A DNA stretch of 53,990 nucleotides. Source: a virus. Taxonomy: Duplodnaviria > Caudoviricetes. Made by a program: the position numbers and the translations under genes. Of the stretch, positions 6,538-42,368 are shown piece by piece (the stretch's first letter is position 1; every line of letters begins with the position of its first letter). The notes beneath the pieces are model-generated. The model had not been told where the DNA came from. It was given only the letters and a program-made list of their open reading frames with translations, and did not search any database. Location: IMG/VR virus record IMGVR_UViG_3300025276_000041, positions 1 through 53,990 of that record, one strand, 5' to 3'.

Positions 6538-8973
6538 ATGAAAGAGGTAAGTATTGACATTTTGCCCTCAGGGTTTCCGAGTCAGTTTGTATCTGACGCA
6601 GAGAAAGCGACTCAAGAGTTTGGGCTCAAGATAGGACAATCCATTCAGTATGAATGGTTTAAAAGAGATAGTGGGTCTTGTAGATACTACGGTCAGTGGC
6701 GTGAATTTAATCGTTTAAGGCTATATGCTAGAGGCGAACAATCGGTTGCTAAATACAAAAATGAGCTTTCTGTAGATGGTGATTTAAGCTATTTAAACCT
6801 AGACTGGACACCCGTCCCTATTCTTCCAAAGTTCGTTGACATTGTTGTAAACGGAATGCAAAGTCGTCAATTTGAAGTTAGAGCATATGCTCAAGACGCT
6901 ATGTCTGCAGGTAAAAGAAACGCCTATCAAGATATAATTGAAGGCGACATGGTAGCAAAAGAGCCATTAACCAAAATGTCAAAAGCTTTTGGAATTGATC
7001 CCTTTCAAATGGATCCTTCTCAATTGCCAAATGATGATCAAGAGTTAGCTCTTTATATGCAGCTAAATTATAAACCATCTATTGAAATAGCAGAAGAAGA
7101 AGCAATCAATACTTTACTAGAAGAAAATCATTACTCTGACATTCGCAAAAGAGTAGACTATGATTTAACAACAATTGGGATTGGCATTACAAAGCAAGAG
7201 TTTTTAGCAGGCGATGGAGTTAGAGTAAGTTATGTTGATCCAGCAAATGTTGTTTATAGCTATACTGAAGACCCTCAGTTTAAAGATTGTTTTTATTGGG
7301 GAGAGATTAAGACACTTCCAATAACTGAACTTATTAAAATTGACCCTAGTCTTACAACTGAAGATTTAGAAACAATATCAAAGTATAGCCAGAGCTGGTA
7401 CGATTACTTTAATGTATCCGATCAGTATCAAAATGATATTTTTAGTAGAGACTCTGCAACTCTAATGTATTTCAATTATAAGACAACAAATAAGTTTGTT
7501 TATAAAAAGAAAGACTTAGATAATGGTAACTCTAGAGTTATAGAGAAAGACGACAACTTTAATCCGCCTGAAGAGATGATGGAGGAAGGTAACTTTACTA
7601 AAGTTGAAAAAACAATAGATGTATGGTATGAAGGAGTTATGGTTATGGGAACTAATATTATGCTCCAATGGAAAATGATGGAGAATATGGTTCGTCCTCA
7701 ATCTGCTTCTCAATACGCAATGCCTAACTACGTTGCAACGGCACCTAGAATGTACAAAGGAAACATAGAGTCTTTGGTTAGAAGAATGATTCCTTTCGCT
7801 GATTTAATTCAAGTCACGCACTTGAAGATGCAACAAGTTATATCAAGAATAGTCCCAGATGGCGTATTCATTGATGCCGATGGGCTTAACGAAGTTGACT
7901 TAGGAACTGGCGCTGCATATAATCCCGAAGACGCGTTACGCTTATACTTCCAAACGGGTAGTGTTATTGGACGTAGCTATACACAAGACGGGGAATTTAA
8001 TAATGCTCGCGTTCCTATTCAACAACTCACATCTAACTCTGGGCAATCTAAAATGGCTGCATTGATTGGCAACTACAATCACTATATGGGTATGATCCGC
8101 TCAGTAACTGGACTTAATGAAGCAAGGGATGGATCCACTCCCGCGCCAGAGGCTCTTGTCGGTGTTCAAAAGTTAGCCGCTTTAAATTCCAACACGGCAA
8201 CTAGGCATATTTTAGAGGGAAGTCTATATATAACCAGAACACTAGCTGAAGCTCTATCTTGCAGGGTTGCTGACATTATGCAATACTCTGATTTTAAAGA
8301 AGAGTTTGCTATGCAGATAGGTAAGTATAATGTGCGTCTTTTGGAAGAAATAAAAGATTTATATATATATGACTTTGGTGTATTTATAGAAATGTCTCCA
8401 GATGAAGAAGAGAAAGGACAGCTAGAAGCTAATATACAAATGGCTTTATCTAGAGACGCAATTGGTCTAGAAGACGCTATTGATATAAGAGAAATAAAAA
8501 ACATTAAGCTAGCCAATCAATTGCTTAAAGTAAAAAGAAAGCAGCATAAAAAAGAAGAGCAACAAGCTGAAATGATGAAACAACAATCTCAAGCTCAGAT
8601 AAATGCTCAATCTCAACAGATGTCTGCACAGATGGCTATGCAAAAAATACAAGCCGAAACTCAAGGGAAAATGCAAATCAAACAAGCGGAAGTTGCTTTT
8701 GAAATAGAAAAACTTAAGAATGAAGCAATGCTTAAGAAAGAATTGATGGCTACGGAGTTTCAGTATCAAATGCAAATAAAAGGCGTTCAAGAAACCGCTA
8801 TTGACAATAGAGAACAAAGCAGAGAAGATTCTAAATCTCAAAGAATAAGTCAACAGAACTCAGAACAGTCTAAGCTTATAAATCAAAGGAAAAACAATTT
8901 GCCTCCAGTAAGTTTTGAGTCTAACGAAGACTCTCTAGATGGCTTTGATTTTGCTGAATTCAATCCTCGATAA
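6538..8973 (+). CDS. Portal protein
   Basis: 811 aa directly after terL, with PILPKFVDIVVNG and a Q-rich coiled-coil C-terminal barrel as in P22/crAss-type portals. Confidence 0.85.
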   Translation: MKEVSIDILPSGFPSQFVSDAEKATQEFGLKIGQSIQYEWFKRDSGSCRYYGQWREFNRLRLYARGEQSVAKYKNELSVDGDLSYLNLDWTPVPILPKFVDIVVNGMQSRQFEVRAYAQDAMSAGKRNAYQDIIEGDMVAKEPLTKMSKAFGIDPFQMDPSQLPNDDQELALYMQLNYKPSIEIAEEEAINTLLEENHYSDIRKRVDYDLTTIGIGITKQEFLAGDGVRVSYVDPANVVYSYTEDPQFKDCFYWGEIKTLPITELIKIDPSLTTEDLETISKYSQSWYDYFNVSDQYQNDIFSRDSATLMYFNYKTTNKFVYKKKDLDNGNSRVIEKDDNFNPPEEMMEEGNFTKVEKTIDVWYEGVMVMGTNIMLQWKMMENMVRPQSASQYAMPNYVATAPRMYKGNIESLVRRMIPFADLIQVTHLKMQQVISRIVPDGVFIDADGLNEVDLGTGAAYNPEDALRLYFQTGSVIGRSYTQDGEFNNARVPIQQLTSNSGQSKMAALIGNYNHYMGMIRSVTGLNEARDGSTPAPEALVGVQKLAALNSNTATRHILEGSLYITRTLAEALSCRVADIMQYSDFKEEFAMQIGKYNVRLLEEIKDLYIYDFGVFIEMSPDEEEKGQLEANIQMALSRDAIGLEDAIDIREIKNIKLANQLLKVKRKQHKKEEQQAEMMKQQSQAQINAQSQQMSAQMAMQKIQAETQGKMQIKQAEVAFEIEKLKNEAMLKKELMATEFQYQMQIKGVQETAIDNREQSREDSKSQRISQQNSEQSKLINQRKNNLPPVSFESNEDSLDGFDFAEFNPR

Positions 8974-9018: not shown

Positions 9019-10131
9019 ATGAAAATTACAGTAAAAGAAGTCGCTAATGTCGAAGCAAAGTCAGTTCAAGAAGTTGAAAATGAATTGTTGACTAAGCACG
9101 AAGAGGAGTTTTCTCAAGAAGAAAAAGTTCCAGAAACAAATACAGGAGAGGTAGCTACCGAGGAAACTCAAGTTGCTGAACTTGAAAAACAGAGTTCCTC
9201 ACTTAAAGAGGAAGACGTTCTTTCATATATTAAAAATAGATATGATAAGCAGATTGACTCTGTAGATCAATTGTTTTCCGAAAGAGAGCAAGCTGAAGAT
9301 CTACCAGAAGATGTTTCCGCTTATTTAAAATATAAAAAAGAAACAGGTAGAGGCATTAAAGACTTTATGAAAATAAATGAAGACTTTGATGACCTAGACG
9401 ACAATACTCTCTTAGCGAGATATTACGCCAATAAAGAAGATGGCCTCGACAGTGATGACATTTCTTTTATGATCGAAGAAGAGTTCGGTTATGACACAGA
9501 AATAGATGAAGAGTCAGACATTAGGCATAAGAAGGTAGCTAAGAAAAAAGAACTTGCCAAAGCAAAGAACTTCTTTGAGGATCAAAAGGAAAAGTACAAA
9601 GCCCCCCTTGAGTCAAGCCCGGGTGCCGCTTCTTCTAAAGACCAAGAAGAGTTTAATTCTTACAAGGAATACCAAGCGAAAGCTTTAAATGTCCAAGATG
9701 AGGAACGTAAAAAGTACGAATGGTTTCAAAAGAAGACGGATGAATACTTCAATGATGAATTTAAAGGTTTTGAATTCAATGTCAATGATAGGGATATAGT
9801 CTACTCTCCTGCTGATGCTGCAGAAATCAAAAGCACTCAATCTGACCTTAACAATTTTATTTCAAAATACGTTAACAAGGATGGTGTAATTGACAATGCC
9901 AAAGGATACCATAAAGCTCTAGCGATGGCGATGAACCCAGACCGAGTAGCCAAGTTCTTCTATGAGCAAGGCATGTCGGACGCTGTAGATAATGTAGCAA
10001 GAAAGTCTAAGAACATTAATATGGATATTAGGCAGACACCACAGAATCTTAGTAAAGGAGGGTTTAACGTGAAGTCCGTAAGCAATGACTCTAGTCGTGG
10101 CTTGAGGATACGTTCAAATAAAAATAAATGA
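9019..10131 (+). CDS. Capsid scaffolding protein
   Basis: Highly acidic helical protein between the portal and major capsid genes. Confidence 0.7.
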   Translation: MKITVKEVANVEAKSVQEVENELLTKHEEEFSQEEKVPETNTGEVATEETQVAELEKQSSSLKEEDVLSYIKNRYDKQIDSVDQLFSEREQAEDLPEDVSAYLKYKKETGRGIKDFMKINEDFDDLDDNTLLARYYANKEDGLDSDDISFMIEEEFGYDTEIDEESDIRHKKVAKKKELAKAKNFFEDQKEKYKAPLESSPGAASSKDQEEFNSYKEYQAKALNVQDEERKKYEWFQKKTDEYFNDEFKGFEFNVNDRDIVYSPADAAEIKSTQSDLNNFISKYVNKDGVIDNAKGYHKALAMAMNPDRVAKFFYEQGMSDAVDNVARKSKNINMDIRQTPQNLSKGGFNVKSVSNDSSRGLRIRSNKNK

Positions 10132-10146
10132 TTAAAATAAATTATT

Positions 10147-11574
10147 ATGGCTGTAGATGCAGTTCCCGGGTTTGACTTACAACCCAGTGCCGAGCGCGTA
10201 GCGCTTGCCACGAATTATATTACTAACTTCAATTTCTTGAATCAGTATCTTCCTGATACTTATGAAAAGGAATTTGAGCGTTACGGTAACCGTACCGTAG
10301 CTTCTTTCTTGAGAATGGTTGGCGCTGAAATGCCTTCTAACTCTGACCTTATCAAATGGGCTGAGCAAGGAAGACTTCACACTAAGTACGTTGATTGTAC
10401 TCCAAAAGCGGCTTTAGCTGCTTCAGATACTGCAACATTCGATGTTAACGATACGCTTAATCCAGGTTCAGGAGGTATCGCTATCAGAGTTGGACAGACA
10501 GTTATGCTTTCAGCTAATTCTCTTTCAACAACTAATAAGGCTATTGTAACTGCAGTAGACTATCCGAATAAAGAATTTACTGTTGCTTTCTATGAGGCGC
10601 TCGGTATGACTGCGGCTACAACTGACAAGTTCACTGTATTTATCTATGGTTCTGAATTTAAGAAAGGAACAGACGGCATGACCAACTCTTTAGAGGCTGA
10701 CGATTCATTTTTTGAGAACTCTCCTATCATTATCAAGGACAGATATGCTGTTTCTGGTTCTGACATGGCTCAGATTGGATGGGTAGAGGTTACTACTGAG
10801 AATGGTGCTTCTGGATACCTATGGTATATGAAGTCAGAGCATGAGACTCGTCTCCGCTTTGAGGACTACCTAGAGACTGCTATGGTTGAGGCTGTTCCTG
10901 CTGCTGCTGGATCAGGAGCTATTGGATTTGCAGGCGCTGCAGGTACTTCTGCAGCTGATGTTGGAAACAAAGGATCTGAAGGTATCTTCCACGTTGTTGG
11001 ACTTAGAGGTAATGTTTGGTCTGGAGGAAATCCAACCACATTGGCTGACTTTGACGCTATGATCGAAAGATTAGACAAGCAAGGAGCTATCCAAGAGAAT
11101 GTTATTTTCTTAAACCGTCAGTTTGGTTTTGATATTGATGATATGCTAGCTGCACAGAACTCTTATGGAGCAGGTGGTACTTCTTACGGATTGTTTGACA
11201 ACGATGAGGAAATGGCTTTAAACTTAGGTTTCAAAGGCTTCACTCGTGGTTATGACTTCTATAAGACTGACTGGAAATACTTAAACGACCCAACTATGCG
11301 CGGTGGTTTAAATGCTGGTAAGATTTCAGGGCTTTTAGTTCCTGCTGGATCTACTACTGTTTATGACCAAATCCTTGGTAAGAACGCAAAGCGTCCTTTC
11401 CTTCACGTTAGATATCGTGCTTCAGAAACTGAAGATCGTCGATATAAGACTTGGATCACAGGTTCTGCTGGAGGCGCTGCAACAAGCAGCCTTGACGCAA
11501 TGGAGGTTAACTACCTTTCTGAGCGTGCAGTTTGTACTTTAGGTGCTAACAACTTCTTCTTGTTTGAAGGATAA
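10147..11574 (+). CDS. Major capsid protein
   Basis: 475 aa after the scaffold gene, with strongly biased (high-expression) codons, followed by a strong terminator. Confidence 0.85.
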   Translation: MAVDAVPGFDLQPSAERVALATNYITNFNFLNQYLPDTYEKEFERYGNRTVASFLRMVGAEMPSNSDLIKWAEQGRLHTKYVDCTPKAALAASDTATFDVNDTLNPGSGGIAIRVGQTVMLSANSLSTTNKAIVTAVDYPNKEFTVAFYEALGMTAATTDKFTVFIYGSEFKKGTDGMTNSLEADDSFFENSPIIIKDRYAVSGSDMAQIGWVEVTTENGASGYLWYMKSEHETRLRFEDYLETAMVEAVPAAAGSGAIGFAGAAGTSAADVGNKGSEGIFHVVGLRGNVWSGGNPTTLADFDAMIERLDKQGAIQENVIFLNRQFGFDIDDMLAAQNSYGAGGTSYGLFDNDEEMALNLGFKGFTRGYDFYKTDWKYLNDPTMRGGLNAGKISGLLVPAGSTTVYDQILGKNAKRPFLHVRYRASETEDRRYKTWITGSAGGAATSSLDAMEVNYLSERAVCTLGANNFFLFEG

Positions 11575-19642: not shown

Positions 19643-21460
19643 ATGGCAAAATCGTTTTATGGATATGTAAAAAGAGATGACAAGGCGTTTGTTGATTGGG
19701 GAGCTATTGGCACTCAGCTATCTGATGATTTAGCCCTAGAAAGCAAAAGAAGAGCAGACAAAAGACAAGAGATTGAACTTCAAACTATTGAAGATGTAAA
19801 AAATATTAATAAGCTAGGGGCTGATCAAAGCCAGCTTAATAGTGAATTTTATATGGACGCCGCAGATCAGATACGTGAATTTTTATTGATGTCACAAGGC
19901 GAGATGCAGAAGGGTGGATGGAGCGGGTTACGACCCTCAGAGTTTTTAAAACAAAGACAAGTTATAAATGATGGTGTTGACCAACTTGCTACAGCGGCAG
20001 AGTCTCAAGCCGCACAACAAGCACAGCTATTAAAGCGTGTCCAGGCGAACGAGGCTGGTCTTACGGAGAGGTATAATCATGAAGATCTTGATCAGTTTAT
20101 TAGTACTGAAAACAAAAGCGTTTATATTAATCCTATAAATGGAAGAATGTCAATTGCCACGAGAGACCCTATTACCAAAAAGATTTCAACCGACCCAATG
20201 AAGTTGTTAGATATAAATCGACTATCTACACGAATGACCTATAGAGCTAATACTCCAGATATTGACTCAATGGTTTCAAAAGCAAATAAAGTTTTGTCTC
20301 CCACAACTATAGCCTTGACCCAAGGTGGTATAAAATCTATTAAGACCGCGATGAACAACCCAAAATATTTGGATGCGGAAACTAGCATGATTAAGGGGAT
20401 GATGGCTTCGGATGAAGTTATCGCCAATATTTTAGGTTTAGATCCAGAGTATAATATGACTCAAGATGCAGCAGAAGCCAATAAGTCTGGTAATAAAAAA
20501 ATACTAACAAAAAAAGATGAGAATGGTGTTTTTGTTCCTATTCTGTCTGAATCTCAAAAAACTGAAGCAGAAGAGATTCTTCGCGCTAGAATACGTGCTA
20601 GTCTAGAGAAGGTTCAAACAGGCAGAGAAGATAGTTCTGCTGACAGACAATACAGCCGCGGGGTGGCTAAGTCTAAGCAAAAAGGTGTAGGCTATATTAG
20701 TGAGTTAAGTGATATTTTTTCTGGGAATGCTGAGAAAGCTGAAAGTGGTTTGGCTTCTATAATTGGAAGAATACAAGAAAAAGAAGGCTATAAAGGGGTT
20801 ACGGGTGCTCTATCAGATACTGGAATCACTTTAACATTTAAAGACGGCTCTACAGACTTTATTAAAAAACCCGCAATCTTTAAAGATTTTGTTACTGGAG
20901 GTGCAACTAGGTTAATGCCAGACGGGGTGGATGATGTTAATGTAGCTTATAAAAACTGGATTGATGCAGGAAATATCGTTGGAGTAAGAACAGATATGAC
21001 AACTGATCGTTTAGGAATAATACCACCAACTAAAGTTCTTAGTGAACTAGTTATTAAAGAAGGAGAGAAGGAATTAACGGTTAAAAATTATCTTAAAGAA
21101 AATAATTATAATTCTAAAAAAGATGCGGTTGAAAAAGTTATTTTAGAATTACTACCACCTGAACTTAAAGCTAATCTTAAGGTTTCTGATAATTATAGTC
21201 CAGGACTTGTGAGAAGAGCTAGAAGATCTTTGAATATTTCTTTAGGCAATATTATTGATAATATTAATATTCCTTTTGACAATACTGATGAGTCTAGAAA
21301 TGAAATATTAAATGTTATAGATTTAATTCAAAAATCAGCTGGGGAAGGAAAAACTTTAACTATTGAAGACATTAAGTCTATTTTGGGAGAAGAAAGTAAA
21401 TCAATATTTGATTCATTAAATAAAATAGATAGTAAATCTGATGATAACAACTTTGGGTAA
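19643..21460 (+). CDS. Internal virion / ejection protein 2
   Basis: 605-aa helical protein in ejection-module position. Confidence 0.6.
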   Translation: MAKSFYGYVKRDDKAFVDWGAIGTQLSDDLALESKRRADKRQEIELQTIEDVKNINKLGADQSQLNSEFYMDAADQIREFLLMSQGEMQKGGWSGLRPSEFLKQRQVINDGVDQLATAAESQAAQQAQLLKRVQANEAGLTERYNHEDLDQFISTENKSVYINPINGRMSIATRDPITKKISTDPMKLLDINRLSTRMTYRANTPDIDSMVSKANKVLSPTTIALTQGGIKSIKTAMNNPKYLDAETSMIKGMMASDEVIANILGLDPEYNMTQDAAEANKSGNKKILTKKDENGVFVPILSESQKTEAEEILRARIRASLEKVQTGREDSSADRQYSRGVAKSKQKGVGYISELSDIFSGNAEKAESGLASIIGRIQEKEGYKGVTGALSDTGITLTFKDGSTDFIKKPAIFKDFVTGGATRLMPDGVDDVNVAYKNWIDAGNIVGVRTDMTTDRLGIIPPTKVLSELVIKEGEKELTVKNYLKENNYNSKKDAVEKVILELLPPELKANLKVSDNYSPGLVRRARRSLNISLGNIIDNINIPFDNTDESRNEILNVIDLIQKSAGEGKTLTIEDIKSILGEESKSIFDSLNKIDSKSDDNNFG

Positions 21461-24400
21461 TGAGTGAAGATATTTTAAATAGAATTTGGAAAAACTTGAC
21501 CAAAAATAAACTCACTAAGAGTGATTTTGAAACTTGGAAATCTAATATTGAATCTGATCAAAAAGTTCAAGAAAATGTTCATCAGTATTTAGTTGAAAAA
21601 AAATTAACTGATTCAGATTTTACTACTTGGCAATCCAATAGTGGTTTAAAAAAAAAAGAAGAAATCGTTACGGAATCTATTTCAGAGGATGGTTCTTCGG
21701 GCTTTGCAGAAGGTGAAGTTGAAGAATTTGTTGGCGATGTAAAAATCCCACAAGATGGTCTAGAGTCTACCCCTTTTGGTGTTAAAAGAAAGGTTGATGG
21801 TGAGCTTACAAGCATATCTCCTACAACAGAGGCTATGATGCCAGAGGTCACCTTTCCACAAAAAACAGAAGAGACTTTAGAAGAAAAAGCAGCCTCTAAA
21901 TTAGAGCCATCTCAAGACGCTTTATTTGTTTCTACATTAGAAACACAAGAACCCACCGTAAAAGAAATAGAAAAAGATATATCGCCATTAATTGATGATC
22001 AAACAATAGAAAGGCTATCGGCTGATTTAGACCCTGAGGTAGAAAAGGAGACAAGAAAATTCTATGAGGACAGAGGCATAGACTACGATGAGGTTAGAGC
22101 TTTAGAGTTGAGATACGATGAGCTTTTAAATAAAAAGCTAGCGGCTGAAGAGGTTAATGAAATTATAAACAACTATTCTCAGACCATGACAGGCACAGGT
22201 TTAGAGATCACAGAGGATGAAAGGTTGTTAGAAATAAAAGAAAAGTATCCTCAGTTTTTTAATAGCCAAGGATTACCTTCTTTTACAGACTTTAGTGAAC
22301 TAGAACAAAAGGAGTTTGATAAAATAAGTAAGCTTATTGTAGACTCTAAAGGCAATGAAGTTAGAACTAGATACACAGATCAAGGGGTACCAGTTAAAAG
22401 TTTTGCAGAAGATCAAAGTAATCAGAGACTAAGAGAAGACCTTGATGAGTATTTGGTTTCTAAGAGAAAAGAAAGAAGCTCTCAAGCGGCTGTTTACAAC
22501 GAAGAAGCAAAAGCTGTTATTAAAAAAGTAGACGAAGAGTCTGTAAGGGTTTTTGGAAAAGACTTGTCTAGCGTTTTGTCTGAGTCTGAAAAAGGACAAA
22601 GGGTTATTTCAGAAGAAGATTCTGCAATACTAAACAGACTAATTAAAGAATTTAATTCATCTCTTTCTACATCTGATTTGGCAGCTAAAGAATACGCAAA
22701 GTCTATGCTTTACTATAACCGTCAACACAACAAGAGTTTAAATGGCGAGTATGAAGATGGATACAAGGCTACCTTAAACGCCATCAAGGGTGGCGCTAAA
22801 ATGGGTAACTCTATAGTAGGTTTGTTTTCAGTTATGCTAGATACCCCAGGTTCCTCTAAAGAAGAAGTCATAAAGAAAATGGCTGAAAATTTTGAAGAGC
22901 AATCTAAACTTCCAACTTCTCGTCTTATGACTAGGTTTCAACAATCTAAGTCTGCAACTGAATTAAAAACCGCGGTATTAAATAACCCTATTGGCTATAT
23001 GGCCTCTTTTATGGGGGAAAGTCTTGCTATGATGTTGCCCGCAGGTGTTCGTTTTGGAGTTGCGAATACTTTAGCGCAAGTTGGAATTGGAGCCGCTAGA
23101 GCTGGAGCACCTGGGGCTACTGCAGGATTAGCAACTGGTATCATAAGTTCTTTTTCTGCAGCCAACGGTATTGTAGAGTATGGTAATGCGTTTTTTGAAG
23201 CGGCAGGGGAAAAGGGTTATGACTTATCTAATCCCGATGATATGCTCAACGCGATGCAAGACGAAGAGGTTTGGGATAAAGCTAATAGAGTTGGAATACC
23301 AAGAGCTATTGCAATATCTGGAGTTGACTTAGCTGGTGGTACTTTAATGAGCAAGGCGCTAAAAGGATTAAAGTATAGTACCATTTCTCGTGGTCGTTTA
23401 GTAGGAACCGCTTTAGGTTCTCAAGTTATTATAGGCCCCACTCAAGAAGGTGGGGGAGAGCTTTTAGCTCAAGCAGTTGCCGGAGAAGGCTTTAGTCTTC
23501 AAGAAACTGTTGCTGAAATGATAGGAGGGGCAGGAACAAACATTCCCAACATAGGTTTAGATGTTTATGGCATAGCCACAGGCAAGGTCAATAATAAACT
23601 AGCAGAAGACTTAAAGAGCACACGTTTTATGGCTTCAGAACTTGAGAATATGTCTGGAGAAAAAATACAGTCTTGGGTTTACAACATGCGAAGGTTAGGT
23701 AAAATGACTCCAGAACAAGAGTCTGAGATATTAGATAATTTAAGCAGTGTAAAAGAAATTAAGGAACTTGTAGACAACAAGGCAGAGTTTAAAGACATGA
23801 AGTCAAAAGAACGAATAGAATATATTTCAGTTCTATCTGTTTTAAAACAAGAGCTTAAGTCCTTAAAAGAAGAAAGCGAAGTTTTGGGAGTGTCGATTGA
23901 TGCCGAAAAGAAGAAAAGTCTAGAGGATAAAATTAAAAAGTTAGTCAATAAAGAAATTACACCTAAAAGCGTTTTACAGGAAAAAATAAAAGAATCATTA
24001 ACATTTAAAGAAGAGTCTGATGCCATTCAAGAGTCAAGCACAGAGAGCGTGGATGTACAAGAACAAGCCGGAGCTAGCGAAGGAGTTCGAGAAGGAGACA
24101 TCACAGAGCGAGTTGCTCCCACAGAGAGCACAACCCAAGATGGGCAAGAGCAAGATGTCGAAACGCAAGTCGAGGAAATCGCGCAAGAGGAGATTATTGA
24201 GCCGAGCCTAAGTCCTCAAGAAATTGAAGCTCAAGAGTTGGAAGACCTTAAGAAAGAGATTGGTCAACCTACCGAAGAAGTTCAAGAGGAAGAAAACAAC
24301 CTTGAAGGTAATTTGTTTTTAAAAGGATCAGATCCTCAATTATCTATTACTCAGAGAAACAAAAGAACTGGATTAATAAAGAGAGGTAAGTCGGCTATTC

Positions 24401-27400
24401 GTTCTATAAAAAAAATCCTACCCAATACTAAAATTATACTACATAAAAATAATGAGTCTTATATTTTAGCGGCAGGCAGAAAAGGGAAAGGTGAATTTGT
24501 TCCAAAAACAAATACTATTCATATTAACTTGAGCAAAGCCACGGGTTCTACAATTGCTCATGAGGTTTTTCATGCGGTCTTTATAGATAAGGTAAAAGGC
24601 TCTAAGGATCTACAAAAAACTGCTGCCGATATGGTTAAGTCCATTGGGAAAAGTCTGCCGAAAGATAGTGATTTAGCTAAAAAAGTAAAGAATTTTAGCG
24701 ACAGATATGAATCTGGAATTCAAGATGAAGAATTTCTTGCAGAGTTAGTTGGTCTATTGTCATCTGAAGAGTTTGGCTTTAGCGAACTTCCTAAACCAGC
24801 AAAGAATACTATTATAGAGTTTCTTAAAAAGATTGCTAAAAAAATAGGCATTAAGCTTGAGGCAACATTTGGCAAGACTGATGAAAGTGTAATAGACTTA
24901 ATTAATATTCTGACACGCAAGGTGTCTACTGGTGAAGAGATTGTTGCAGAAGATGTTCAATCACTAGAGCAAGAAGAGAAAGATTCTAAAAGTGAAATAA
25001 CAAATAGGCAACAAAAAGAAGCTTTAGATATTATAGGAGTTGAAACACCTAAAAAAAATGCAACAAAAATCGTTGTAGCAGACATATTAAATGGCTTTGC
25101 AAAATCAGAGTTGACTCCAAATTCTTCTGAGCAAGATTTAATATCTAGATTTTTAGAAAACATATTTGAAGAGTCTTTGTATACATTAAATAAAGGATCA
25201 AGAGAGTCGGGTATGACTTGGTACATGGAAGACATTACTGAGTTTGAAAACAAAATGAAAGTTTTATTGCCTGAGCTCGAAGACCCCAATCAAATGAAGT
25301 TGTTCAAGCAAGTTCTTGCAATCACTTCTTCGGGAACCAACCCTAACCAAAACCTAAAGACAGCATACACTTTGTGGGTTCGATCTAACGGAGATGCCGT
25401 AAACTTTGCTAAAAACTGGGGGAAAGATAAGATTTCTTTTATTACTAAAAAAGGCGTGCCTTTAGGTACAGGCGTTGTGGTTCGGGAGACTAAAACTAAG
25501 TATGTACTACAGAAAGTGGATGCTTTAGGAAATCTAGAAACATTTAAAAATGGAACACCAAAGTTATTTGAAGCTAAAAAATCACAGTTAAAAAAAGGAT
25601 ACCCTAAGCCGGCTGGATTTACATCTAGAGGTAGTATTGTAGCGCAACAGCTAATCAAGATAGAAAAGGTTTATAAATCTGTAGGCAAAGACATTAATAA
25701 ACTTATTTCGTTCTTTGAAGAAACTCAACCTGTATCTGAACTTAGAAAATACAACAAGGGAATTCCTGACGCTGATGGAAACACAAGAATAATAGCTGTT
25801 GGTAAGCGTAATGGAGCGTTTATTTTTGGTGAAAAAATTGGTGCTTTCTATCAAAATATGATTGGTATCGGAGATACAATCACTATGGATTTATGGTGGA
25901 GTCGTACTTGGAATAGATATATGGGTACAATGTTATCTACTGTAAAAGGAGAGAGAAATATTCAAGAAACACCAAGGACAGATAGAGAGCGTGATATTAT
26001 GCGTAAAGCCGTAACTTTGGCTGCTGATAAATTAAATCTTAGCGTAAGTGAACTTCAAGCAGTTATATGGTATTTTGAACAAGAACTTTGGACTAAGGCC
26101 GGAAAGGTATCTCCAAGTTTTAGCTACGTTACAGCAGTAAATAAATTAAATAACGAAATAGAAACAGATGAAGAAACAAAAAGAAGATTTTCAAAAGCTG
26201 GAGCAGACCTCACAAAGGCTGAAGAGAGAAGGCAAGATGCCGTCTCTAGAGCAGATAATATTGTTAATGAAGCAAGTGGCGAAGGAGTTGTAGCTAATCG
26301 TCAAGAAATATCTCCAAGACAACAACTTGAAGAAATCGTAGGGGATACAGAAAATAGTTTATTTCAAACGATAGCACAAGCTAGATTTGCTGGCTTTAAA
26401 GACATAACAATTAAAGCACTTCTTAAGGAGCAAAAATATTCAGTAGCAGACATTAATGAGGCTATGAAGGTTGAAAAAATAGTTAGCCTTTCTTTTCCTT
26501 CAATACTTTCAAGAGCATTTTATAAATCTAAGTTTCATACGACAAAGTCGGCTAAAGACAGGATAAAACAAATTTTAGACTTAGAGATAGGTAGGTCTGT
26601 AGAATTACCAAGTTCTTTTGCCAATGTAAAAGGAGGCGTTATCTCTGGTAAAAGGCTACTCGTAGACATAATGACGGAAGTTACTGAGAAAGCTATTCTT
26701 AAAAGAAATAGCTATAGGAAAATCTTTGAGACAAAAGAAAAAAGATTGTCTAACGCTCAAGTTAAAAAGTTATCTGCTGAGAGCTCAAAAGAAAGGGCTG
26801 AAGTTAGAAAAATAGCTATAGAAACTCTAGAAAAAAATTCTGACTACAAGAACGAAAGCGAAGAGATGCAAGCCCAGATGAAGCTAGACCTAGATAGAAT
26901 CATAAGTGGTGAAGTTGGAACTTACGGGTCTAAAATGTTTATAGAAAACTTTAGAGTTTTGAGAACTATGCTCTCTGAAAGAGCTAAAGGAAGGGCTGGA
27001 ATTAAGGAAATGCAAATGATGCTGAGGTCTTTTATTAGACAAAACCTTCCCTCTATTGATTATAGCAAGCCTGAAGTTAGCAGGCTCCTAAAAGCCATTA
27101 CAGATGTCAAGATAGACCCAAAGTCTAGATCTACAAATATTGATGAGATAACGGCTAGGGTTGTTGGTTACGTTTCAGAGGCTCAGTCTTCTCAAGTGGA
27201 AAGTAAAATAAATAAATTACTTAGCACAACGACACAAAGGACAGAGTCTGGGAGAATTAAGGGTAAGGGATTTCTTCCTTCTTTTCAAGATAGTTTTGCT
27301 GAATTAGAGAGAATGATTGTCGATGACAACATGGCTGAGCAAAAAATTCAAGACACCATAGGTGCACAACGTCGAGAGTTTGAAGATATAATGAGCCGAA

Positions 27401-29955
27401 CTCAAGAAAGAACAGTTAATGAAATCCAGACTCCTGCCGAAGAGCTATCTCAAGAAGATTTAGATCGTTTAGAGATTTTACAAATCGCCATAGAGCTTAA
27501 CTCAGCTAAGATGATGGAAAACAAAGACCCTTTAAAAGTAAAGGCTCTTAGTAATGTTTTAGTATTGTTGCAAAAGTATATTTTGAGAGGGAAGTCTGAA
27601 AACAAGGGAGAACTAAATGCTTATAAACAAAGAGTTAATAACATGATTGCTGAAGCTTTTTATAATGTTTCTGGAGGACAAAACATTCCAGAGACAGAAG
27701 AAGAAAGAGCTAGATGGGTAAGAAGGTCAGCAAATAAAGCTCAAAGAAGAAATGATTCAAGAAATTTATTTCTCTCTGCATTCAAAACAGCATTTACAGG
27801 ACTAGAAGGGTATTTTACAAAGAGCAACGCGTTAGAGGGTCTTGTAAGTAAAGTCACAATGATTCCTGGAGAAATGATAGGGGGTCGCTTTCAAGATATG
27901 ATTACATATAGGGTGAAAGATTCAACTTCTGAGTTTACTAGAAGAAAATTGTTAGTCACTAAAATGATTGATGATAATGCTAAACGCATTTTTGGTAAAG
28001 ACTACATCTCTAAGATGGAGAAAAATAAAGCTGGAATAAACACAGGTCTTTATGTTAATTCTCAAGAGGCAAAAGATATTAAACTTAAAATATCAAAAGA
28101 AAAAAACGAAGCAAAGAAAAGAAAATTAATTAGTAAGCTAGGGGAATTAGAAATAGAAGCAAGTAAAAATCAAATATATTATTTATACAATCAATATAAA
28201 GACCCTGCTAATATACCAACTTTTAACGCCATGTATGGTGAAGATTATGCTAAAACAATGGAGGGTCTGATTAATTTCTTGGATGACGAAACTAAGGCTT
28301 GGGCAGATTGGCAAGTTAATGTTTTCTTCCCTTCTTTATATAATGACTATAATGATGTATATAAAAGAATATATCGTGCTAATATGCCATGGAATCAGTT
28401 TTATGCAGGCAGACTTTATAGGGAGGTTAATAAAAAGGATGCCGGTGTTGATTTATTAAAAAGCCAAACTCAATACATGGGCAGTGTAGGTGGTCAATCA
28501 ACAAAAGAAAGAGTAAAAAATAAGGAGCGTATATTAAAAGTAGATGGAGATAAAGCTTTAAGTGTTTATGTGAATGATATGGAATACTTTAGGGCTTATG
28601 CTGAAACTTTAAAGGAAATTAACACCGTATTCAATAATAAGTATGTTAGACTCTCTATAGAGGAAAACACAGGCAAAGAAACTTACAAGCTTATTACGGA
28701 CATGATAAATAAACTTAGCACTAGAGGTATAAAGAGTGGGGAAATACAATTATTAAATAAATTAAACTCAGCGTTTGTTAGCGCTAAATTAGGCATAAAT
28801 CCTACCGTTTTTGTAAAACAATTAACGTCTGCGTTTGCTTTTGCGGATTATGTTGGAATTAGAAATTGGATTAAATACTGGGTTAAAGCCGCTCCAGATG
28901 CTAAACAACTATGGAACGAGTGGTACGATAACTCTCCAGTTTTGCAGGCTAGATATGAGTTTTCTTCTATAGCAAATGTTTTAGAAGGCTATGATTACGA
29001 TACCATAAATGACAAAATACAGTCCCCTGTATTTGAAGCTTTATCTATTACTAAAGATGAAATTTCTAAAGCTCAAAACGCCTTGATGTATTTAGTGAAA
29101 ATGGGTGACATGGGAGGAATAATGGGAGGCATATCTAACTATTTGTATTACAAAGAAAAGTTTGCAGAAAAAAACCCAAAGGCTACCGAGCAACAAGCGA
29201 TTGATTATGCTTCTCGAAAGGCTACCAATGAGGCTACAAGCACACAACAAAATAGTGCTATTGAAGATAAAGACTGGTGGCAGACGGCTGGTCAATTACC
29301 TAGGCTCATGTCTTTATTCCTATCAGCGCCAAAGGCTTTAAATAGAAAAACTATTATGTCTGTGAGGCAGTTGTATAGAAAGTCTGCAACTTTAGGCAAG
29401 GCCATGAGAGAGGGTAAATCATTCAAAGAGGCTAACGAAATTGCTAGAAATACTGGTCGAGGTAGCGCATATGAAAACTGGAGGAGAATGGCTATATATC
29501 ATAGTGCTATTCCAACTGTTTTTCAATATGTTGCACTAGGTATGCCAGGTCTTCTAACAGACTTTGATGATGATGACTTAGAAGAGTTAGGTATCGCAGC
29601 AATTTTAGGAAACATAAACGCTGTGTTTTTAGTGGGAGATTTATTTGTTGCCGCTAAAGACCTATATCTTAACAAATTTTGGGCAGGGCGAATGAAAAAC
29701 CTTTCTGCTTTTATGGCTATAGAAGAGATAGCTACAAGGTCAATAATTCCTCTTGTAAACAGTTCTTCTCCTGAAAAAACCAAAAAATATACTATGAGAT
29801 TAATTCTTCAACTACTAGAACTCGGTGGAATTCCAGCTAAAAATGTAAAAAAACTAGCAGAAAACTATTACAAGCTATTAACTGGAGATGTCGAAGATAC
29901 TGGAGAGGCTGTAGCTCGTTTACTAAACTACTCTGACTACGTTATAGAGAAATAA
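21460..29955 (+). CDS. Giant internal virion (polyvalent-type) protein with a zincin HEVFH domain and a putative HhH-glycosylase-like domain
   Basis: 2831 aa with a Gly/Ala hydrophobic segment, TIAHEVFH...EEFLAE, and WY...LAITSSG...N...GEKIGAFYQN...ITMDLW...LQAVIW. Confidence 0.75.
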   Translation: MSEDILNRIWKNLTKNKLTKSDFETWKSNIESDQKVQENVHQYLVEKKLTDSDFTTWQSNSGLKKKEEIVTESISEDGSSGFAEGEVEEFVGDVKIPQDGLESTPFGVKRKVDGELTSISPTTEAMMPEVTFPQKTEETLEEKAASKLEPSQDALFVSTLETQEPTVKEIEKDISPLIDDQTIERLSADLDPEVEKETRKFYEDRGIDYDEVRALELRYDELLNKKLAAEEVNEIINNYSQTMTGTGLEITEDERLLEIKEKYPQFFNSQGLPSFTDFSELEQKEFDKISKLIVDSKGNEVRTRYTDQGVPVKSFAEDQSNQRLREDLDEYLVSKRKERSSQAAVYNEEAKAVIKKVDEESVRVFGKDLSSVLSESEKGQRVISEEDSAILNRLIKEFNSSLSTSDLAAKEYAKSMLYYNRQHNKSLNGEYEDGYKATLNAIKGGAKMGNSIVGLFSVMLDTPGSSKEEVIKKMAENFEEQSKLPTSRLMTRFQQSKSATELKTAVLNNPIGYMASFMGESLAMMLPAGVRFGVANTLAQVGIGAARAGAPGATAGLATGIISSFSAANGIVEYGNAFFEAAGEKGYDLSNPDDMLNAMQDEEVWDKANRVGIPRAIAISGVDLAGGTLMSKALKGLKYSTISRGRLVGTALGSQVIIGPTQEGGGELLAQAVAGEGFSLQETVAEMIGGAGTNIPNIGLDVYGIATGKVNNKLAEDLKSTRFMASELENMSGEKIQSWVYNMRRLGKMTPEQESEILDNLSSVKEIKELVDNKAEFKDMKSKERIEYISVLSVLKQELKSLKEESEVLGVSIDAEKKKSLEDKIKKLVNKEITPKSVLQEKIKESLTFKEESDAIQESSTESVDVQEQAGASEGVREGDITERVAPTESTTQDGQEQDVETQVEEIAQEEIIEPSLSPQEIEAQELEDLKKEIGQPTEEVQEEENNLEGNLFLKGSDPQLSITQRNKRTGLIKRGKSAIRSIKKILPNTKIILHKNNESYILAAGRKGKGEFVPKTNTIHINLSKATGSTIAHEVFHAVFIDKVKGSKDLQKTAADMVKSIGKSLPKDSDLAKKVKNFSDRYESGIQDEEFLAELVGLLSSEEFGFSELPKPAKNTIIEFLKKIAKKIGIKLEATFGKTDESVIDLINILTRKVSTGEEIVAEDVQSLEQEEKDSKSEITNRQQKEALDIIGVETPKKNATKIVVADILNGFAKSELTPNSSEQDLISRFLENIFEESLYTLNKGSRESGMTWYMEDITEFENKMKVLLPELEDPNQMKLFKQVLAITSSGTNPNQNLKTAYTLWVRSNGDAVNFAKNWGKDKISFITKKGVPLGTGVVVRETKTKYVLQKVDALGNLETFKNGTPKLFEAKKSQLKKGYPKPAGFTSRGSIVAQQLIKIEKVYKSVGKDINKLISFFEETQPVSELRKYNKGIPDADGNTRIIAVGKRNGAFIFGEKIGAFYQNMIGIGDTITMDLWWSRTWNRYMGTMLSTVKGERNIQETPRTDRERDIMRKAVTLAADKLNLSVSELQAVIWYFEQELWTKAGKVSPSFSYVTAVNKLNNEIETDEETKRRFSKAGADLTKAEERRQDAVSRADNIVNEASGEGVVANRQEISPRQQLEEIVGDTENSLFQTIAQARFAGFKDITIKALLKEQKYSVADINEAMKVEKIVSLSFPSILSRAFYKSKFHTTKSAKDRIKQILDLEIGRSVELPSSFANVKGGVISGKRLLVDIMTEVTEKAILKRNSYRKIFETKEKRLSNAQVKKLSAESSKERAEVRKIAIETLEKNSDYKNESEEMQAQMKLDLDRIISGEVGTYGSKMFIENFRVLRTMLSERAKGRAGIKEMQMMLRSFIRQNLPSIDYSKPEVSRLLKAITDVKIDPKSRSTNIDEITARVVGYVSEAQSSQVESKINKLLSTTTQRTESGRIKGKGFLPSFQDSFAELERMIVDDNMAEQKIQDTIGAQRREFEDIMSRTQERTVNEIQTPAEELSQEDLDRLEILQIAIELNSAKMMENKDPLKVKALSNVLVLLQKYILRGKSENKGELNAYKQRVNNMIAEAFYNVSGGQNIPETEEERARWVRRSANKAQRRNDSRNLFLSAFKTAFTGLEGYFTKSNALEGLVSKVTMIPGEMIGGRFQDMITYRVKDSTSEFTRRKLLVTKMIDDNAKRIFGKDYISKMEKNKAGINTGLYVNSQEAKDIKLKISKEKNEAKKRKLISKLGELEIEASKNQIYYLYNQYKDPANIPTFNAMYGEDYAKTMEGLINFLDDETKAWADWQVNVFFPSLYNDYNDVYKRIYRANMPWNQFYAGRLYREVNKKDAGVDLLKSQTQYMGSVGGQSTKERVKNKERILKVDGDKALSVYVNDMEYFRAYAETLKEINTVFNNKYVRLSIEENTGKETYKLITDMINKLSTRGIKSGEIQLLNKLNSAFVSAKLGINPTVFVKQLTSAFAFADYVGIRNWIKYWVKAAPDAKQLWNEWYDNSPVLQARYEFSSIANVLEGYDYDTINDKIQSPVFEALSITKDEISKAQNALMYLVKMGDMGGIMGGISNYLYYKEKFAEKNPKATEQQAIDYASRKATNEATSTQQNSAIEDKDWWQTAGQLPRLMSLFLSAPKALNRKTIMSVRQLYRKSATLGKAMREGKSFKEANEIARNTGRGSAYENWRRMAIYHSAIPTVFQYVALGMPGLLTDFDDDDLEELGIAAILGNINAVFLVGDLFVAAKDLYLNKFWAGRMKNLSAFMAIEEIATRSIIPLVNSSSPEKTKKYTMRLILQLLELGGIPAKNVKKLAENYYKLLTGDVEDTGEAVARLLNYSDYVIEK
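24020..24211 (+). CDS. Overprinted small basic protein (MPFKSQAQRAWMYKNKPELAKEFEKET...) nested in the +1 frame of the giant gene
   Basis: The N-terminus matches a pattern I recall as a stand-alone small phage protein (MPFKS..QR.WM....PE.AK..E.ET). Recall not verified by search. Confidence 0.6.
   Translation: MPFKSQAQRAWMYKNKPELAKEFEKETSQSELLPQRAQPKMGKSKMSKRKSRKSRKRRLLSRA
26168..26293 (+). CDS. Candidate second nested gene (41 aa, MKKQKEDFQKLEQTSQRLKREGKMPSLEQIILLMKQVAKEL) in the +1 frame
   Basis: Translated by hand. Preceded by an A-rich leader (AAATAAATTAAATAACGAAATAGAAACAG-ATG) like those of bona fide genes here, and encodes amphipathic helices. Confidence 0.45.
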   Translation: MKKQKEDFQKLEQTSQRLKREGKMPSLEQIILLMKQVAKEL

Positions 29956-41414: not shown

Positions 41415-41430
41415 CTTAATTTATTTTTAA

Positions 41431-41456
41431 TGGTTATGACCATCCCCCGAAGGGGA
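41431..41456 (-). repeat. Early-leader repeat copy 5: hairpin + UGGUCAUAACCA
   Basis: UCCCC-UUCG-GGGGA-UGGUCAUAACCA-UUAAAA. AUAACC starts 23 nt before ATG 41414. Confidence 0.9.
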
Positions 41457-41472
41457 GGTGTTTAAACGAGCT

Positions 41473-41823
41473 CTATTCTGCATTTTTTGGGTAAAGCATC
41501 TGAGCTATATATGCATAGACTCTCTTAGCTTGGGCATCAGACATCTCTCCCGCCTCTTGGTGAATCGTCAGGATATTCATAACAAGAGCTAAGGTTGTAT
41601 CAACGCACCTTTGTGGAGGTAGTGAGGCTACTTCGTTAAATGCACCTAAGCTTACCCTCTCATCAAATCCCTCTTCATAAACGGACTCTGTAACTACCAT
41701 TCGATGTTTTTTTGCTTCTTTCTCTAAAGCCTTAAGACAAGAGATGTATGTCTCTTCACTATTAAATGTTGCTACCTTTTCTGCGTAAGAATGTTTTGGT
41801 GTTTCAAAATATACTGTTATCAT
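41473..41823 (-). CDS. Hypothetical early protein
   Basis: 116-aa ORF flanked by repeat copies. Confidence 0.7.
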   Translation of the reverse strand: MITVYFETPKHSYAEKVATFNSEETYISCLKALEKEAKKHRMVVTESVYEEGFDERVSLGAFNEVASLPPQRCVDTTLALVMNILTIHQEAGEMSDAQAKRVYAYIAQMLYPKNAE

Positions 41824-41839
41824 TTTAAATAAATTTAAT

Positions 41840-41865
41840 TGGTTATGACCATCCCCCGAAGGGGA
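41840..41865 (-). repeat. Early-leader repeat copy 4
   Basis: UCCCC-UUCG-GGGGA-UGGUCAUAACCA, 23 nt to ATG 41823. Confidence 0.9.
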
Positions 41866-42352: not shown

Positions 42353-42368
42353 AATAAATAGTTTTTAA

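What the first reader, a model, noticed from the sequence alone, without database searches (positions are those of the whole stretch)
24020..24211. Overprinted gene nested in the +1 frame of the 2831-aa ejection protein
Seen: a 63-codon ORF MPFKSQAQRAWMYKNKPELAKEFEKET...LP followed by a K/R tail. It overlaps a low-complexity acidic linker (DAIQESSTESVDVQEQAG) of the host frame, just before the zincin domain. The N-terminus matches a pattern I recall from stand-alone small basic phage proteins (unverified). Inference: true dual coding, possibly a captured gene whose alternate frame became the linker.
Basis: partly seen in the sequence, partly recalled or inferred. Interest (0 to 1): 0.7.

Follow-up and report, generated by a model that had tools for sequence, protein, structure and literature searches.

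The report
Conserved small gene nested in giant phage gene
A 63-codon gene for a small basic protein lies inside, and out of frame with, the giant virion-protein gene of a marine-type phage, and comparison with related phages indicates that both reading frames are kept by selection.

Summary
ORF 24020-24211 (+), 63 aa, lies in the +1 frame of the 2831-aa ORF 21460-29955. It overlaps an acidic linker about 200 nt before an HExxH (zincin-like) domain. Its length alone is not significant (shuffle P = 0.23).

Homology and conservation make the case:
- Stand-alone 42-68 aa homologues exist, and the family has 4395 cluster representatives.
- In a sample chosen by the host protein's zincin domain, 39 of 80 related giant genes carry the ORF nested at the same site. 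All 39 are in the +1 frame and start with ATG.
- In 13 of the 80 it is a separate gene just after the giant gene. In 28 no copy was found in the stretch held.
- A more distant lineage nests it in the scaffold-position gene.
- An unannotated copy lies in cultured Flavobacterium phage elemoA.
- Host-frame third-position diversity falls from 0.30-0.50 to 0.04-0.09 across the overlap.
- Nested copies never use TTT at codon 3, which would put a stop in the host frame.

I conclude that this is true dual coding by a pre-existing gene embedded in a tolerant linker. Translation has not been shown directly. The function is inferred: a head-associated basic protein whose N-terminal two-helix module is elsewhere fused to domains of several kinds.

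The parts
24020..24211 (+). Nested gene in the +1 frame of the giant ORF: 63 aa plus TAA stop. It encodes a small basic protein of the 'MPFKS' family, related to phrog_1375.
24020..24121 (+). Conserved core, codons 1-34. It carries the invariant M1 P2 S5 Q8 P17 and the near-invariant K4 A7 M12 A20 L33 P34. The model gives two short helices (residues 6-15 and 17-26, pLDDT 89-94).
   Evidence: WIN and L083 differ at 4 of the first 81 nt.
24122..24208 (+). Variable K/R-rich tail of the small protein. Length and sequence are poorly conserved across the family.
21460..29955 (+). Host gene: a 2831-aa giant virion protein and the last gene of the + strand structural block. Its position resembles that of the T7 gp16 internal core protein (T7 gene order recalled, not checked in a call).
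24001..24324 (+). Acidic low-complexity linker of the host frame. The part over the nested ORF behaves as the passenger frame.
24415..25020 (+). Zincin-like HExxH domain of the host protein (HEVFH at about 24559-24573). This is the block used to gather relatives without reference to the small ORF.
22039..23775 (+). Conserved N-terminal block of the host protein, 26-28% identical in distant relatives. The nested ORF always lies between this block and the zincin-like domain.
26293..29952 (+). Conserved C-terminal block of the host protein, 21-33% identical in relatives.
9019..10131 (+). 370-aa ORF in the scaffold position between portal and major capsid protein (phrog_16786). It has no nested copy here, but its homologues in a more distant lineage host the same small gene in their +1 frame.

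Best explanation
ORF 24020-24211 is a real protein-coding gene embedded in the +1 frame of the giant virion-protein gene, so this stretch of DNA is dual coding. The small gene belongs to a large, pre-existing family of phage proteins. Members share a conserved 35-residue N-terminal module and a basic tail. The small frame is the one under stronger purifying selection. The host frame reads the same DNA as an acidic, low-complexity linker between two conserved blocks, and it only has to stay open. I infer that the small protein is made by independent initiation at its own AUG on the late structural mRNA. The host appears to be of the Bacteroidota type and does not rely on Shine-Dalgarno sites. 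I also infer the function: a small, head-associated basic protein, packaged with or acting on the capsid contents, whose N-terminal module is a docking or targeting unit. Shown: the ORF, its homology, the conservation of site, frame and start codon, suppression of host synonymous change, and codon choices that keep the host frame open. Inferred: translation, the capture scenario and the function.
For: (1) Homology. Twelve stand-alone proteins of 42-68 aa are 57-85% identical. A profile search finds 4395 representatives at E<=1e-3 and 790 at E<=1e-10. phrog_1375 matches only this place in the record.
(2) Conservation in relatives chosen by the host zincin domain, not by the ORF. Of 80 loci, 39 have the ORF nested, all in the +1 frame, all ATG, 308-1811 nt upstream of the domain. 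Twelve have it 1-12 nt after the giant gene's stop, and one more (L098) about 98 nt after it.
(3) Two GenBank relatives found through the giant protein carry unannotated nested copies: Flavobacterium phage elemoA_7-9A gp21 and MW202828 (E 1e-10 and 1e-8).
(4) Frame periodicity over the first 27 codons of 36 unique nested copies. Diversity at small-frame positions 1/2/3 is 0.237/0.160/0.353. Amino-acid identity is 0.72 in the small frame and 0.53 in the host frame.
(5) Synonymous constraint. In a clade of 10 unique sequences, host third-position diversity is 0.30-0.50 in the flanks and 0.04-0.09 in overlap codons 3-32. A second clade of 6 unique sequences shows 0.02 in codons 0-29. WIN versus L083 (82-86% identical giant proteins) gives host position-3 difference of 0.086 in the first 35 overlap codons against 0.33-0.43 beside it.
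(6) Selection to keep the host frame open. Codon 3 is TTC or TAC in 65 of 65 unique nested copies and never TTT. Stand-alone copies use TTT in 25 of 43, and the host-equivalent frame has stops in 22 of 28 stand-alone copies.
(7) Head association. The alternative sites of the gene are just after the giant gene, inside the scaffold-position gene, or abutting portal genes.
(8) Modularity. Of the best 150 family hits, 71 are 100 aa or longer, and the module starts at residue 1-3 in 132 of 150. The tails carry InPase, S-AdoMet lyase/DUF3293, ParB-like nuclease, DUF5661 and other domains. Iyer et al. 2017 describe InPase domains in virion-packaged polyvalent proteins (PMC5512222, passages read).
Against: There is no direct evidence of translation, since no Ribo-seq or proteomics was available. 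RNA-library contigs cover the stretch but do not show transcription, let alone translation. ORF length alone is not significant (P = 0.23). The gene is not universal. Twenty-eight of the 80 related giant-gene loci have no copy in the stretch held. Four of the five near-complete relatives searched whole that had no copy beside the giant gene have none at this sensitivity. The window's copy departs from the family consensus at residues 28-32 (TSQSE where most have TPK..). The first locus set was gathered with the small protein itself, which biases; searches do not have this bias. The two locus sets share several contigs. The function is inferred from context only: there is no Pfam family and no solved or annotated structural relative.
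Confidence: 0.8

Rival explanations
1. The +1 frame is conserved but no longer expressed. It would be a fossil of a captured gene, or a by-product of nucleotide-level constraint such as an RNA or DNA element, or of constraint on the host-frame peptide.
For: No direct evidence of translation. ORF length is not significant. The overlap has an odd composition, 51.6% GC against 35.9% for the gene, which could mark some other element. Some relatives do without the gene.
Against: The variation has the periodicity of the small frame, not the host frame: host position 3 is the least variable. Synonymous codons of the small frame vary freely (CCA/CCG/CCT/CCC, AAA/AAG, AGC/AGT) while the residues stay fixed. 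The ATG is kept in 64 of 65 unique nested copies, with GTG in the other. No stops occur in any nested copy, across giant proteins only 21-42% identical in their conserved blocks. In the WIN/L083 pair, two of the three changed codons in the core are silent in the small frame and change the host residue.
Confidence: 0.08
2. The small frame is reached by programmed ribosomal frameshifting from the giant frame. This would give a truncated N-terminal fragment with a basic C-terminal tail rather than a free small protein.
For: The two frames are on the same strand and the same mRNA. Phage structural genes are known to use frameshifting (general knowledge). In a minority of nested loci the small frame is open for more than 20 codons upstream, for example L023 with 32 and L033 with 38.
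Against: The start codon is conserved, and homologues that stand alone begin at the same Met. In most nested loci a stop in the small frame lies 0-12 codons upstream of the ATG; in the window it is 6 codons. In the best 150 family hits the module sits at residue 1-3 in 132, which suggests a free N-terminus matters. I did not search for a slippery site.
Confidence: 0.05
3. The giant ORF is not one gene. The true arrangement would be gene A, the small gene, then gene B, and the continuous host frame would be an assembly artefact or chance.
For: In other phages the small gene does sit between or beside separate genes (L012, L049, L052).
Against: The host frame is open through the small gene in all 39 nested loci of the host-ascertained set, in the 38 of the first set, and in two finished GenBank genomes. 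Nested copies avoid TTT at codon 3, which would stop the host frame (65 of 65), whereas 22 of 28 stand-alone copies have stops in that frame. That is selection, not chance.
Confidence: 0.03
4. The small gene arose de novo by overprinting inside the acidic linker of the giant gene and later escaped to stand-alone positions.
For: The +1 frame of GAR-rich acidic coding is naturally K/R-rich and free of stops, so linkers of this kind are fertile ground. On the zincin-domain tree the nested state occurs on both sides of the midpoint root.
Against: The family has 4395 representatives. Many are N-terminal modules of longer, varied proteins, and there are weak relatives in unrelated phages. This is much wider than the clade with the nested arrangement. 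The conserved part is a folded two-helix core, not the K/R tail. The tree is unrooted, so it gives no direction.
Confidence: 0.04

Closest known systems
Lambda Rz/Rz1 two-component spanin genes (embedded architecture)
   Same: A small gene lies wholly embedded in the +1 frame of a larger phage gene on the same strand. Equivalent gene pairs occur as embedded and as separated arrangements in different phages, and gene callers routinely miss the embedded gene (Kongari et al. 2018, PMC6139136, passages read).
   Different: The product has no lipoprotein signal or Cys lipobox, so it is not a spanin. The host is a giant virion protein, not a lysis protein. Here one sequence family is found both embedded and separated, whereas Kongari et al. 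report no spanin family that combines embedded with separated members. Here the same small gene is also embedded in a second, unrelated host gene.
phrog_1375 (phage protein family of unknown function)
   Same: Its profile matches the module. Four of 13 family members match at E<=0.01, best 8e-5. Long fused members match at 8e-6 to 2e-4. In the window's record it matches only the nested ORF (E 0.006).
   Different: The window protein scores only E = 0.079 in a library-wide scan. The PHROG carries no function and says nothing about nesting.
Polyvalent or giant virion proteins with zincin-like metallopeptidase domains (Iyer et al. 2017)
   Same: The host gene is a multi-kilobase late gene with an HExxH domain. 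Long members of the small family carry InPase, which that paper describes in packaged polyvalent proteins. They also carry DUF3293/S-AdoMet-lyase and ParB-like nuclease domains; linking these two to that class is recalled, not read.
   Different: The word 'overlapping' does not occur in that paper's main text. Its supplementary domain lists could not be read, so I cannot say whether the module is among its '40 novel uncharacterized domains'.
De novo overprinted genes of small viruses (for example phiX174 E and K; Pavesi 2021 review, PMC8227390, search listing and abstract only)
   Same: Two proteins are read from one stretch of DNA in different frames, and one of the two products is of low complexity.
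   Different: Here the embedded frame is the old, widely distributed and better-conserved gene. The surrounding frame is the low-complexity newcomer over that stretch.
DUF3008 (PF11450)
   Same: Small phage or bacterial proteins. I recalled a similar N-terminal K-S-x-x-Q pattern, and the ESM Atlas listed a DUF3008 cluster at score 0.78.
   Different: There is no HMM match at E<=1 for the protein, none at E<=0.1 for 13 members, and none at E<=10 in the whole record.

Membership tests
'MPFKS' small-protein family (phrog_1375-related) | Significant sequence similarity to family members over the N-terminal module of about 35 residues | tested here: met
   E 1.9e-8 to 6.5e-4 for 12 proteins; my family HMM gives E 4.7e-23 (the window copy was one of the sequences it was built from); phrog_1375 gives E 0.006 per record, at a single place.
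'MPFKS' small-protein family (phrog_1375-related) | Invariant and near-invariant residues present (M1 P2 S5 Q8 P17; K4 A7 M12 A20 L33 P34) | tested here: met
   (104 sequences, window first): every listed column is identical in the window copy.
'MPFKS' small-protein family (phrog_1375-related) | Module at the very N-terminus of the product | tested here: met
   The ORF starts at the module's Met. In the best 150 profile hits, 132 start at residue 1-3.
Embedded (nested) overlapping gene, Rz/Rz1-type architecture | Whole ORF inside a longer ORF, same strand, different frame | tested here: met
   24020-24211 lies within 21460-29955, frame +1.
Embedded (nested) overlapping gene, Rz/Rz1-type architecture | Both frames maintained by selection | tested here: met
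   Small frame. Host frame kept open by codon choice.
Embedded (nested) overlapping gene, Rz/Rz1-type architecture | Both products shown to be made | not testable with these tools
   No Ribo-seq or proteomics. One search shows only that RNA-library contigs cover the stretch.
Two-component spanin (o-spanin) | Lipoprotein signal with a lipobox Cys; location in a lysis cassette | tested here: not met
   The window peptide has no Cys and no hydrophobic signal. It lies in the structural block, not a lysis cassette.
DUF3008 (PF11450) | Pfam HMM match | tested here: not met
   no match.
De novo overprinted gene | The embedded frame is taxonomically restricted and has no homologues outside the overlap | tested here: not met
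   Stand-alone and fused homologues are abundant.
Zincin-like giant or polyvalent virion protein (the host gene) | HExxH motif in a conserved domain; late structural operon; multi-domain giant protein | tested here: inconclusive
   HEVFH and the H/E/H columns are invariant in 9 sequences, and the gene lies in the structural block. No Pfam peptidase family matched. Neither the fold nor virion presence was tested.

The most novel reading that the evidence does not exclude
The small gene and its out-of-frame acidic 'shadow' form one movable dual-coding cassette. It has been placed inside at least two unrelated capsid-interior genes: the giant ejection or polyvalent protein and the scaffold-position protein. 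It is always in the same register. The two products of the same DNA would work together. The basic peptide, through its N-terminal two-helix module, would be a general capsid-targeting or DNA-docking unit, the same unit that other phages fuse to InPase, SAM-lyase, nuclease and other domains. It may bind the acidic linker it is co-encoded with, which would set the stoichiometry of packaged protein.
Probability: 0.15. Interest if true: 0.85.

Novelty: new variant of a known kind. Interest (0 to 1): 0.72.

Why it matters
Embedded genes in tailed phages are known mainly from the spanins, and gene callers discard them. This case adds a second embedded gene. It was found nested in 38 of the first 80 viral contigs and 39 of the second 80 (the two sets share several contigs), and in at least one cultured phage genus, unannotated in both GenBank records checked. 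It is unusual in three ways:
- The embedded frame is the older and better-conserved gene, and the surrounding giant gene is the passenger over that stretch.
- The same sequence family occurs embedded, separated, and embedded in a second host gene. This gives a natural series for studying how a gene becomes nested.
- The family is very large (4395 representatives at 50% identity), has no known function, and its module heads proteins with InPase, S-AdoMet lyase/DUF3293 and ParB-like nuclease domains. A function found for it would therefore annotate thousands of phage proteins.

It also gives a concrete, testable case in a cultured system: Flavobacterium phage elemoA and its host strain.

Tried and rejected
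- Complex prediction with the major capsid protein (A5), the scaffold-position protein (A6) and the small protein (A3) as partner returned 'no answer' (score 0.00, controls not run). This is no evidence either way.
- Fold searches with the AlphaFold model (pLDDT 79) returned only uncharacterised small phage proteins in BFVD (best E 7e-4) and nothing in the PDB (E > 5). A PDB sequence search returned only a chance 13-residue match to SH3BGRL (E 0.26).
- Pfam gave nothing for the small protein or for 13 relatives. The three longer in-locus forms (L020, L080, L055) also gave nothing.
- A tblastn of the peptide against GenBank phages gave only weak hits (E 0.2-0.7). I looked at two of them: Streptomyces phage FlowerPower gene 48, next to a holin, and phage C75C1. 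I do not rely on them.
- ESM Atlas: the nearest clusters are unnamed viral hypotheticals. The DUF3008 lead at 0.78 was rejected by HMM.
- A search for relics of the ORF, with stops read as X, upstream of the zincin domain in the 41 non-nested giants found nothing better than E 1.3.
- Among 80 loci gathered with the window's capsid protein (74-94% identical), none had a copy within 4 kb, so close relatives do not nest it in the scaffold gene.
- The other +1 ORFs of the giant gene (58, 50, 44 and 41 codons) are kept in L083 only as expected from 90-98% nucleotide identity; one has a stop there. I searched for homologues of none of them.
- RNA runs: eight metatranscriptome runs hold 0.06-0.20 of the sampled words. 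Four were laid (X1-X4) and their contigs cover the stretch, but contigs in an RNA library do not show transcription. The table of differences was cut before the nested ORF.
- Literature searches for the family, the PHROG, DUF3008, and nested genes in virion proteins found nothing relevant. The paper opened (PMC7077304) does not deal with the elemo phages.
Supplements were closed, so spanin Table S4 and the domain files of Iyer et al. were not seen.
Full report
**What is there**

The window is a whole viral record of 53,990 bases, estimated 89% complete. It has a + strand structural block:
- large terminase, 4255-6537
- portal, 6538-8973
- a 370-aa ORF in the scaffold position, 9019-10131
- a capsid-type virion protein, 10147-11574
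- further virion proteins
- ORFs of 248 aa and 605 aa
- a 2831-aa ORF, 21460-29955, which ends the block

ORF 24020-24211 (ATG to TAA, 63 aa) lies inside the giant ORF in its +1 frame.

Over the overlap the host frame is acidic: 19 D+E in 64 residues, pI 4.05. The small protein is basic: 20 K+R in 63 residues, pI 11.4. An HExxH domain begins about 200 nt after the ORF ends.

**Is it more than chance?**

Not by length. In 2000 codon-order shuffles of the giant gene, 23% gave a +1 ATG ORF of 63 codons or more. The gene also has other +1 ORFs of 58 and 50 codons. This is expected, because the +1 reading of GAR-rich acidic coding is K/R-rich and free of stops.

The case rests on homology. Against 5.8 billion proteins, the peptide finds 12 proteins of 42-68 aa at E 1.9e-8 to 6.5e-4, out of 14 candidates scored. 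All begin with the same N-terminal pattern and end in a K-rich tail. A profile of 104 family members finds 4395 representatives at E<=1e-3 and 790 at E<=1e-10 among 1.84 billion. The phrog_1375 profile matches one place in the record, the nested ORF (E 0.006). My family HMM also finds a single significant place in the window.

**Relatives gathered with the small protein**

Of these, 323 were confirmed and the best 80 were kept.
- Seventy-nine of the 80 loci had an ORF with an exact [MVL]PFKS start. L007 did not and was dropped.
- With the window included, 39 copies lie inside ORFs of 1000 codons or more.
- Twelve lie inside ORFs of 158-410 codons.
- Twenty-nine are not nested.
- Every nested copy has the same register: small frame = host frame +1.
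- The giant hosts are homologous to the window's but distant: 26-28% identity in an N-terminal block, 35-42% in the zincin-like block and 21-33% in the C-terminal block. The nested ORF always sits between the first two blocks.

**Relatives gathered without reference to the small ORF**

I aligned the zincin-like domain and scanned with it. There were 346 pattern matches, 230 were confirmed and the best 80 were kept. Several of these contigs are also in the first set.

- In 39 of 80 loci the small ORF is nested in the giant ORF. All 39 are in the +1 frame, all start with ATG, and they lie 308-1811 nt upstream of the domain.
- In 12 of 80 it is a separate gene starting 1-12 nt after the giant gene's stop.
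- In 29 of 80 there was no hit in the stretch held.

I then searched the whole contigs of five loci without a hit. One (L098) has the gene about 98 nt after the giant gene. Four records, 95-100% complete, have none. The gene is therefore common but not universal.

The giant protein also found relatives in GenBank: 68 Flavobacterium 'elemo' phage records, Tenacibaculum phage Gundel_1 and others. I examined two of them, elemoA_7-9A gp21 (3694 aa) and the podovirus MW202828. Both have a nested +1 homologue (E 1e-10 and 1e-8) that the records do not annotate.

**Which frame is under selection?**

Over the first 27 codons of 36 unique nested copies, mean pairwise difference at small-frame positions 1/2/3 is 0.237/0.160/0.353. 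This is the pattern of a coding frame. For the host frame it means that its third position is the least variable. Amino-acid identity is 0.72 in the small frame and 0.53 in the host frame. That set was chosen by the small protein, so I repeated the test on host-ascertained clades.

| Comparison | Measure | Flanks | Overlap |
|---|---|---|---|
| Clade 1, 10 unique sequences | Host third-position diversity | 0.30-0.50 | 0.04-0.09 (codons 3-32) |
| Clade 1 | Differences between codons for the same residue | 0.15-0.39 | 0.03-0.06 |
| Clade 2, 6 unique sequences | Host third-position diversity | 0.11-0.44 upstream, 0.59-0.70 further downstream | 0.02 (codons 0-29) |
| Window vs L083 (giants 82-86% identical) | Host third-position difference | 0.33-0.43 | 0.086 (first 35 codons) |

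In clade 1, host position 1, which is small-frame position 3, becomes the most variable. In the window-L083 pair, the first 81 nt of the ORF differ at 4 sites. Two of the three changed codons are silent in the small frame but change the host residue.

**Is the host frame also kept?**

Yes. In stand-alone copies the host-equivalent frame has stops in 22 of 28. Nested copies have none by definition. The mechanism is visible at codon 3. TTT followed by AAR would create TAA in the host frame. Nested copies use TTC (53) or TAC (12) and never TTT, in 65 unique copies. Stand-alone copies use TTT in 25 of 43. Both frames are therefore maintained, which is what dual coding means.

**Other homes of the gene**

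- In L025, L058, L061, L068, L069 and L078 the same gene is nested, again +1, near the 5' end of the homologue of the window's scaffold-position ORF (33-39% identical). These are phages with terminase 63-69%, portal about 48% and capsid protein 47-53% identical to the window's. L050, L059, L060 and L077 look the same by gene order but were not compared by BLAST.
- In the one such contig long enough to check (G006, 32.6 kb) there is a single copy. The syntenic 3408-aa giant ORF has neither a copy nor BLAST similarity to the window's giant.
- The window's own scaffold-position ORF has no copy. Neither do 80 closer relatives gathered by capsid protein.
- Elsewhere the gene abuts portal genes: a 4-nt overlap upstream of one in L052, and directly after one in L012.
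- On a quick tree of the zincin domain (81 rows) the three states are strongly clustered. The fewest changes is 10, and 0 of 500 shuffles clustered any single state as tightly. The nested state is on both sides of the midpoint root. The tree is unrooted and has long branches, so it gives no direction.
- Small proteins of the 'after' type are on average closest to nested-in-giant ones (0.72 against 0.64-0.65 for other classes). This is modest support for relocation within the lineage.
- No relic of the ORF remains at the usual site in the non-nested giants.

**What the protein may do**

- The AlphaFold model built on 104 sequences has mean pLDDT 79. It shows two short helices (residues 6-15 and 17-26, pLDDT 89-94), an extended stretch, and a low-confidence basic helix.
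- There is no informative structural or Pfam relative.
- Of the best 150 family hits, 71 are 100-761 aa long, and the module starts at residue 1-3 in 132 of 150.
- Their C-terminal parts are heterogeneous. DUF5661 occurs in 3 of 71. InPase, IF3_C, cupin, S-AdoMet lyase/DUF3293, HerA-type ATPase, ParB-like nuclease and AAA occur in 1 each. Most have no Pfam domain.
- Iyer et al. 2017 describe InPase domains in phage polyvalent proteins that are probably packaged in the virion, and zincin-like peptidase domains in giant virion proteins such as the N4 virion RNA polymerase (PMC5512222, passages read).
- The gene's constant neighbours are the portal, the scaffold-position gene and the giant terminal gene.

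Together these points suggest a capsid-interior role. The module would be a docking or targeting unit, and the minimal form nested here would carry only a basic, possibly DNA-binding, tail. This is inference. I put it at roughly 40%.

**Expression**

The window's genes lack Shine-Dalgarno motifs (1 of 32) and have A/T-rich leaders. The 13 bases before the nested ATG are purine-rich, and the same is true in most nested loci. This fits SD-independent internal initiation, but it is weak evidence. Contigs from metatranscriptome libraries cover the stretch, which does not show transcription.

**Comparison with what is known**

The nearest known case is lambda Rz1, embedded in the +1 frame of Rz. 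Spanin pairs occur in embedded, overlapped and separated forms, and annotation misses them routinely (Kongari et al. 2018, passages read). There are four differences here:
- the product is not a lipoprotein;
- the host is a giant virion protein;
- the embedded frame is the old, widely distributed gene and the host frame is the passenger;
- one sequence family spans embedded and separated forms and a second host gene, whereas that paper reports no spanin family combining embedded with separated members.

Searches of the held literature found no description of this family or of this nested gene. Supplementary files could not be read.

**Verdict**

This is a real, conserved, unannotated embedded gene, a new variant of a known kind. 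Translation and function remain to be shown.

Noticed in passing
window 41425-43287, - strand: The 15-nt motif TCATAACCAWTWAAA occurs 5 times (41425, 41834, 42363, 42605, 43273) against 0.08 expected. Four of the five lie about 10-25 nt upstream of the starts of small - strand genes. It is a candidate promoter or regulatory box of an early gene cluster.
   Followed up: partly
window 44760-46379, +: The phage encodes a full-length GroEL-type chaperonin (phrog_5725, E 1.3e-135).
   Followed up: no
L081 (NC_055852.1, Flavobacterium phage elemoA_7-9A), about locus 6210-6338, +; L082 (MW202828.1), about locus 10847-10978, +: These nested homologues inside annotated giant structural genes are missing from both GenBank annotations. 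The variants carry two Cys in the module.
   Followed up: partly
window 24019-24211: There is a local GC spike: 51.6% in the overlap against 35.9% for the giant gene and 37.2% for the window. It fits dual-coding codon constraints, but I did not separate that from a foreign origin.
   Followed up: no
G005:C1:20893-20994 (contig of L098), +: A weak second match to the small family (E 0.0037, with 2 stops inside) lies within the 3' part of that phage's giant gene. It is possibly a decayed second copy.
   Followed up: no
L020 10001-10747; L080 5830-6333; L055 2676-2951: In-locus examples where the module heads longer ORFs (248, 167 and 91 aa). Their remaining parts have no Pfam domain.
   Followed up: partly
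window 23679-24026, - strand: A 115-aa antisense ORF overlaps the start of the nested gene. I did not look for homologues. It is likely a by-product of the purine-rich coding strand.
   Followed up: no
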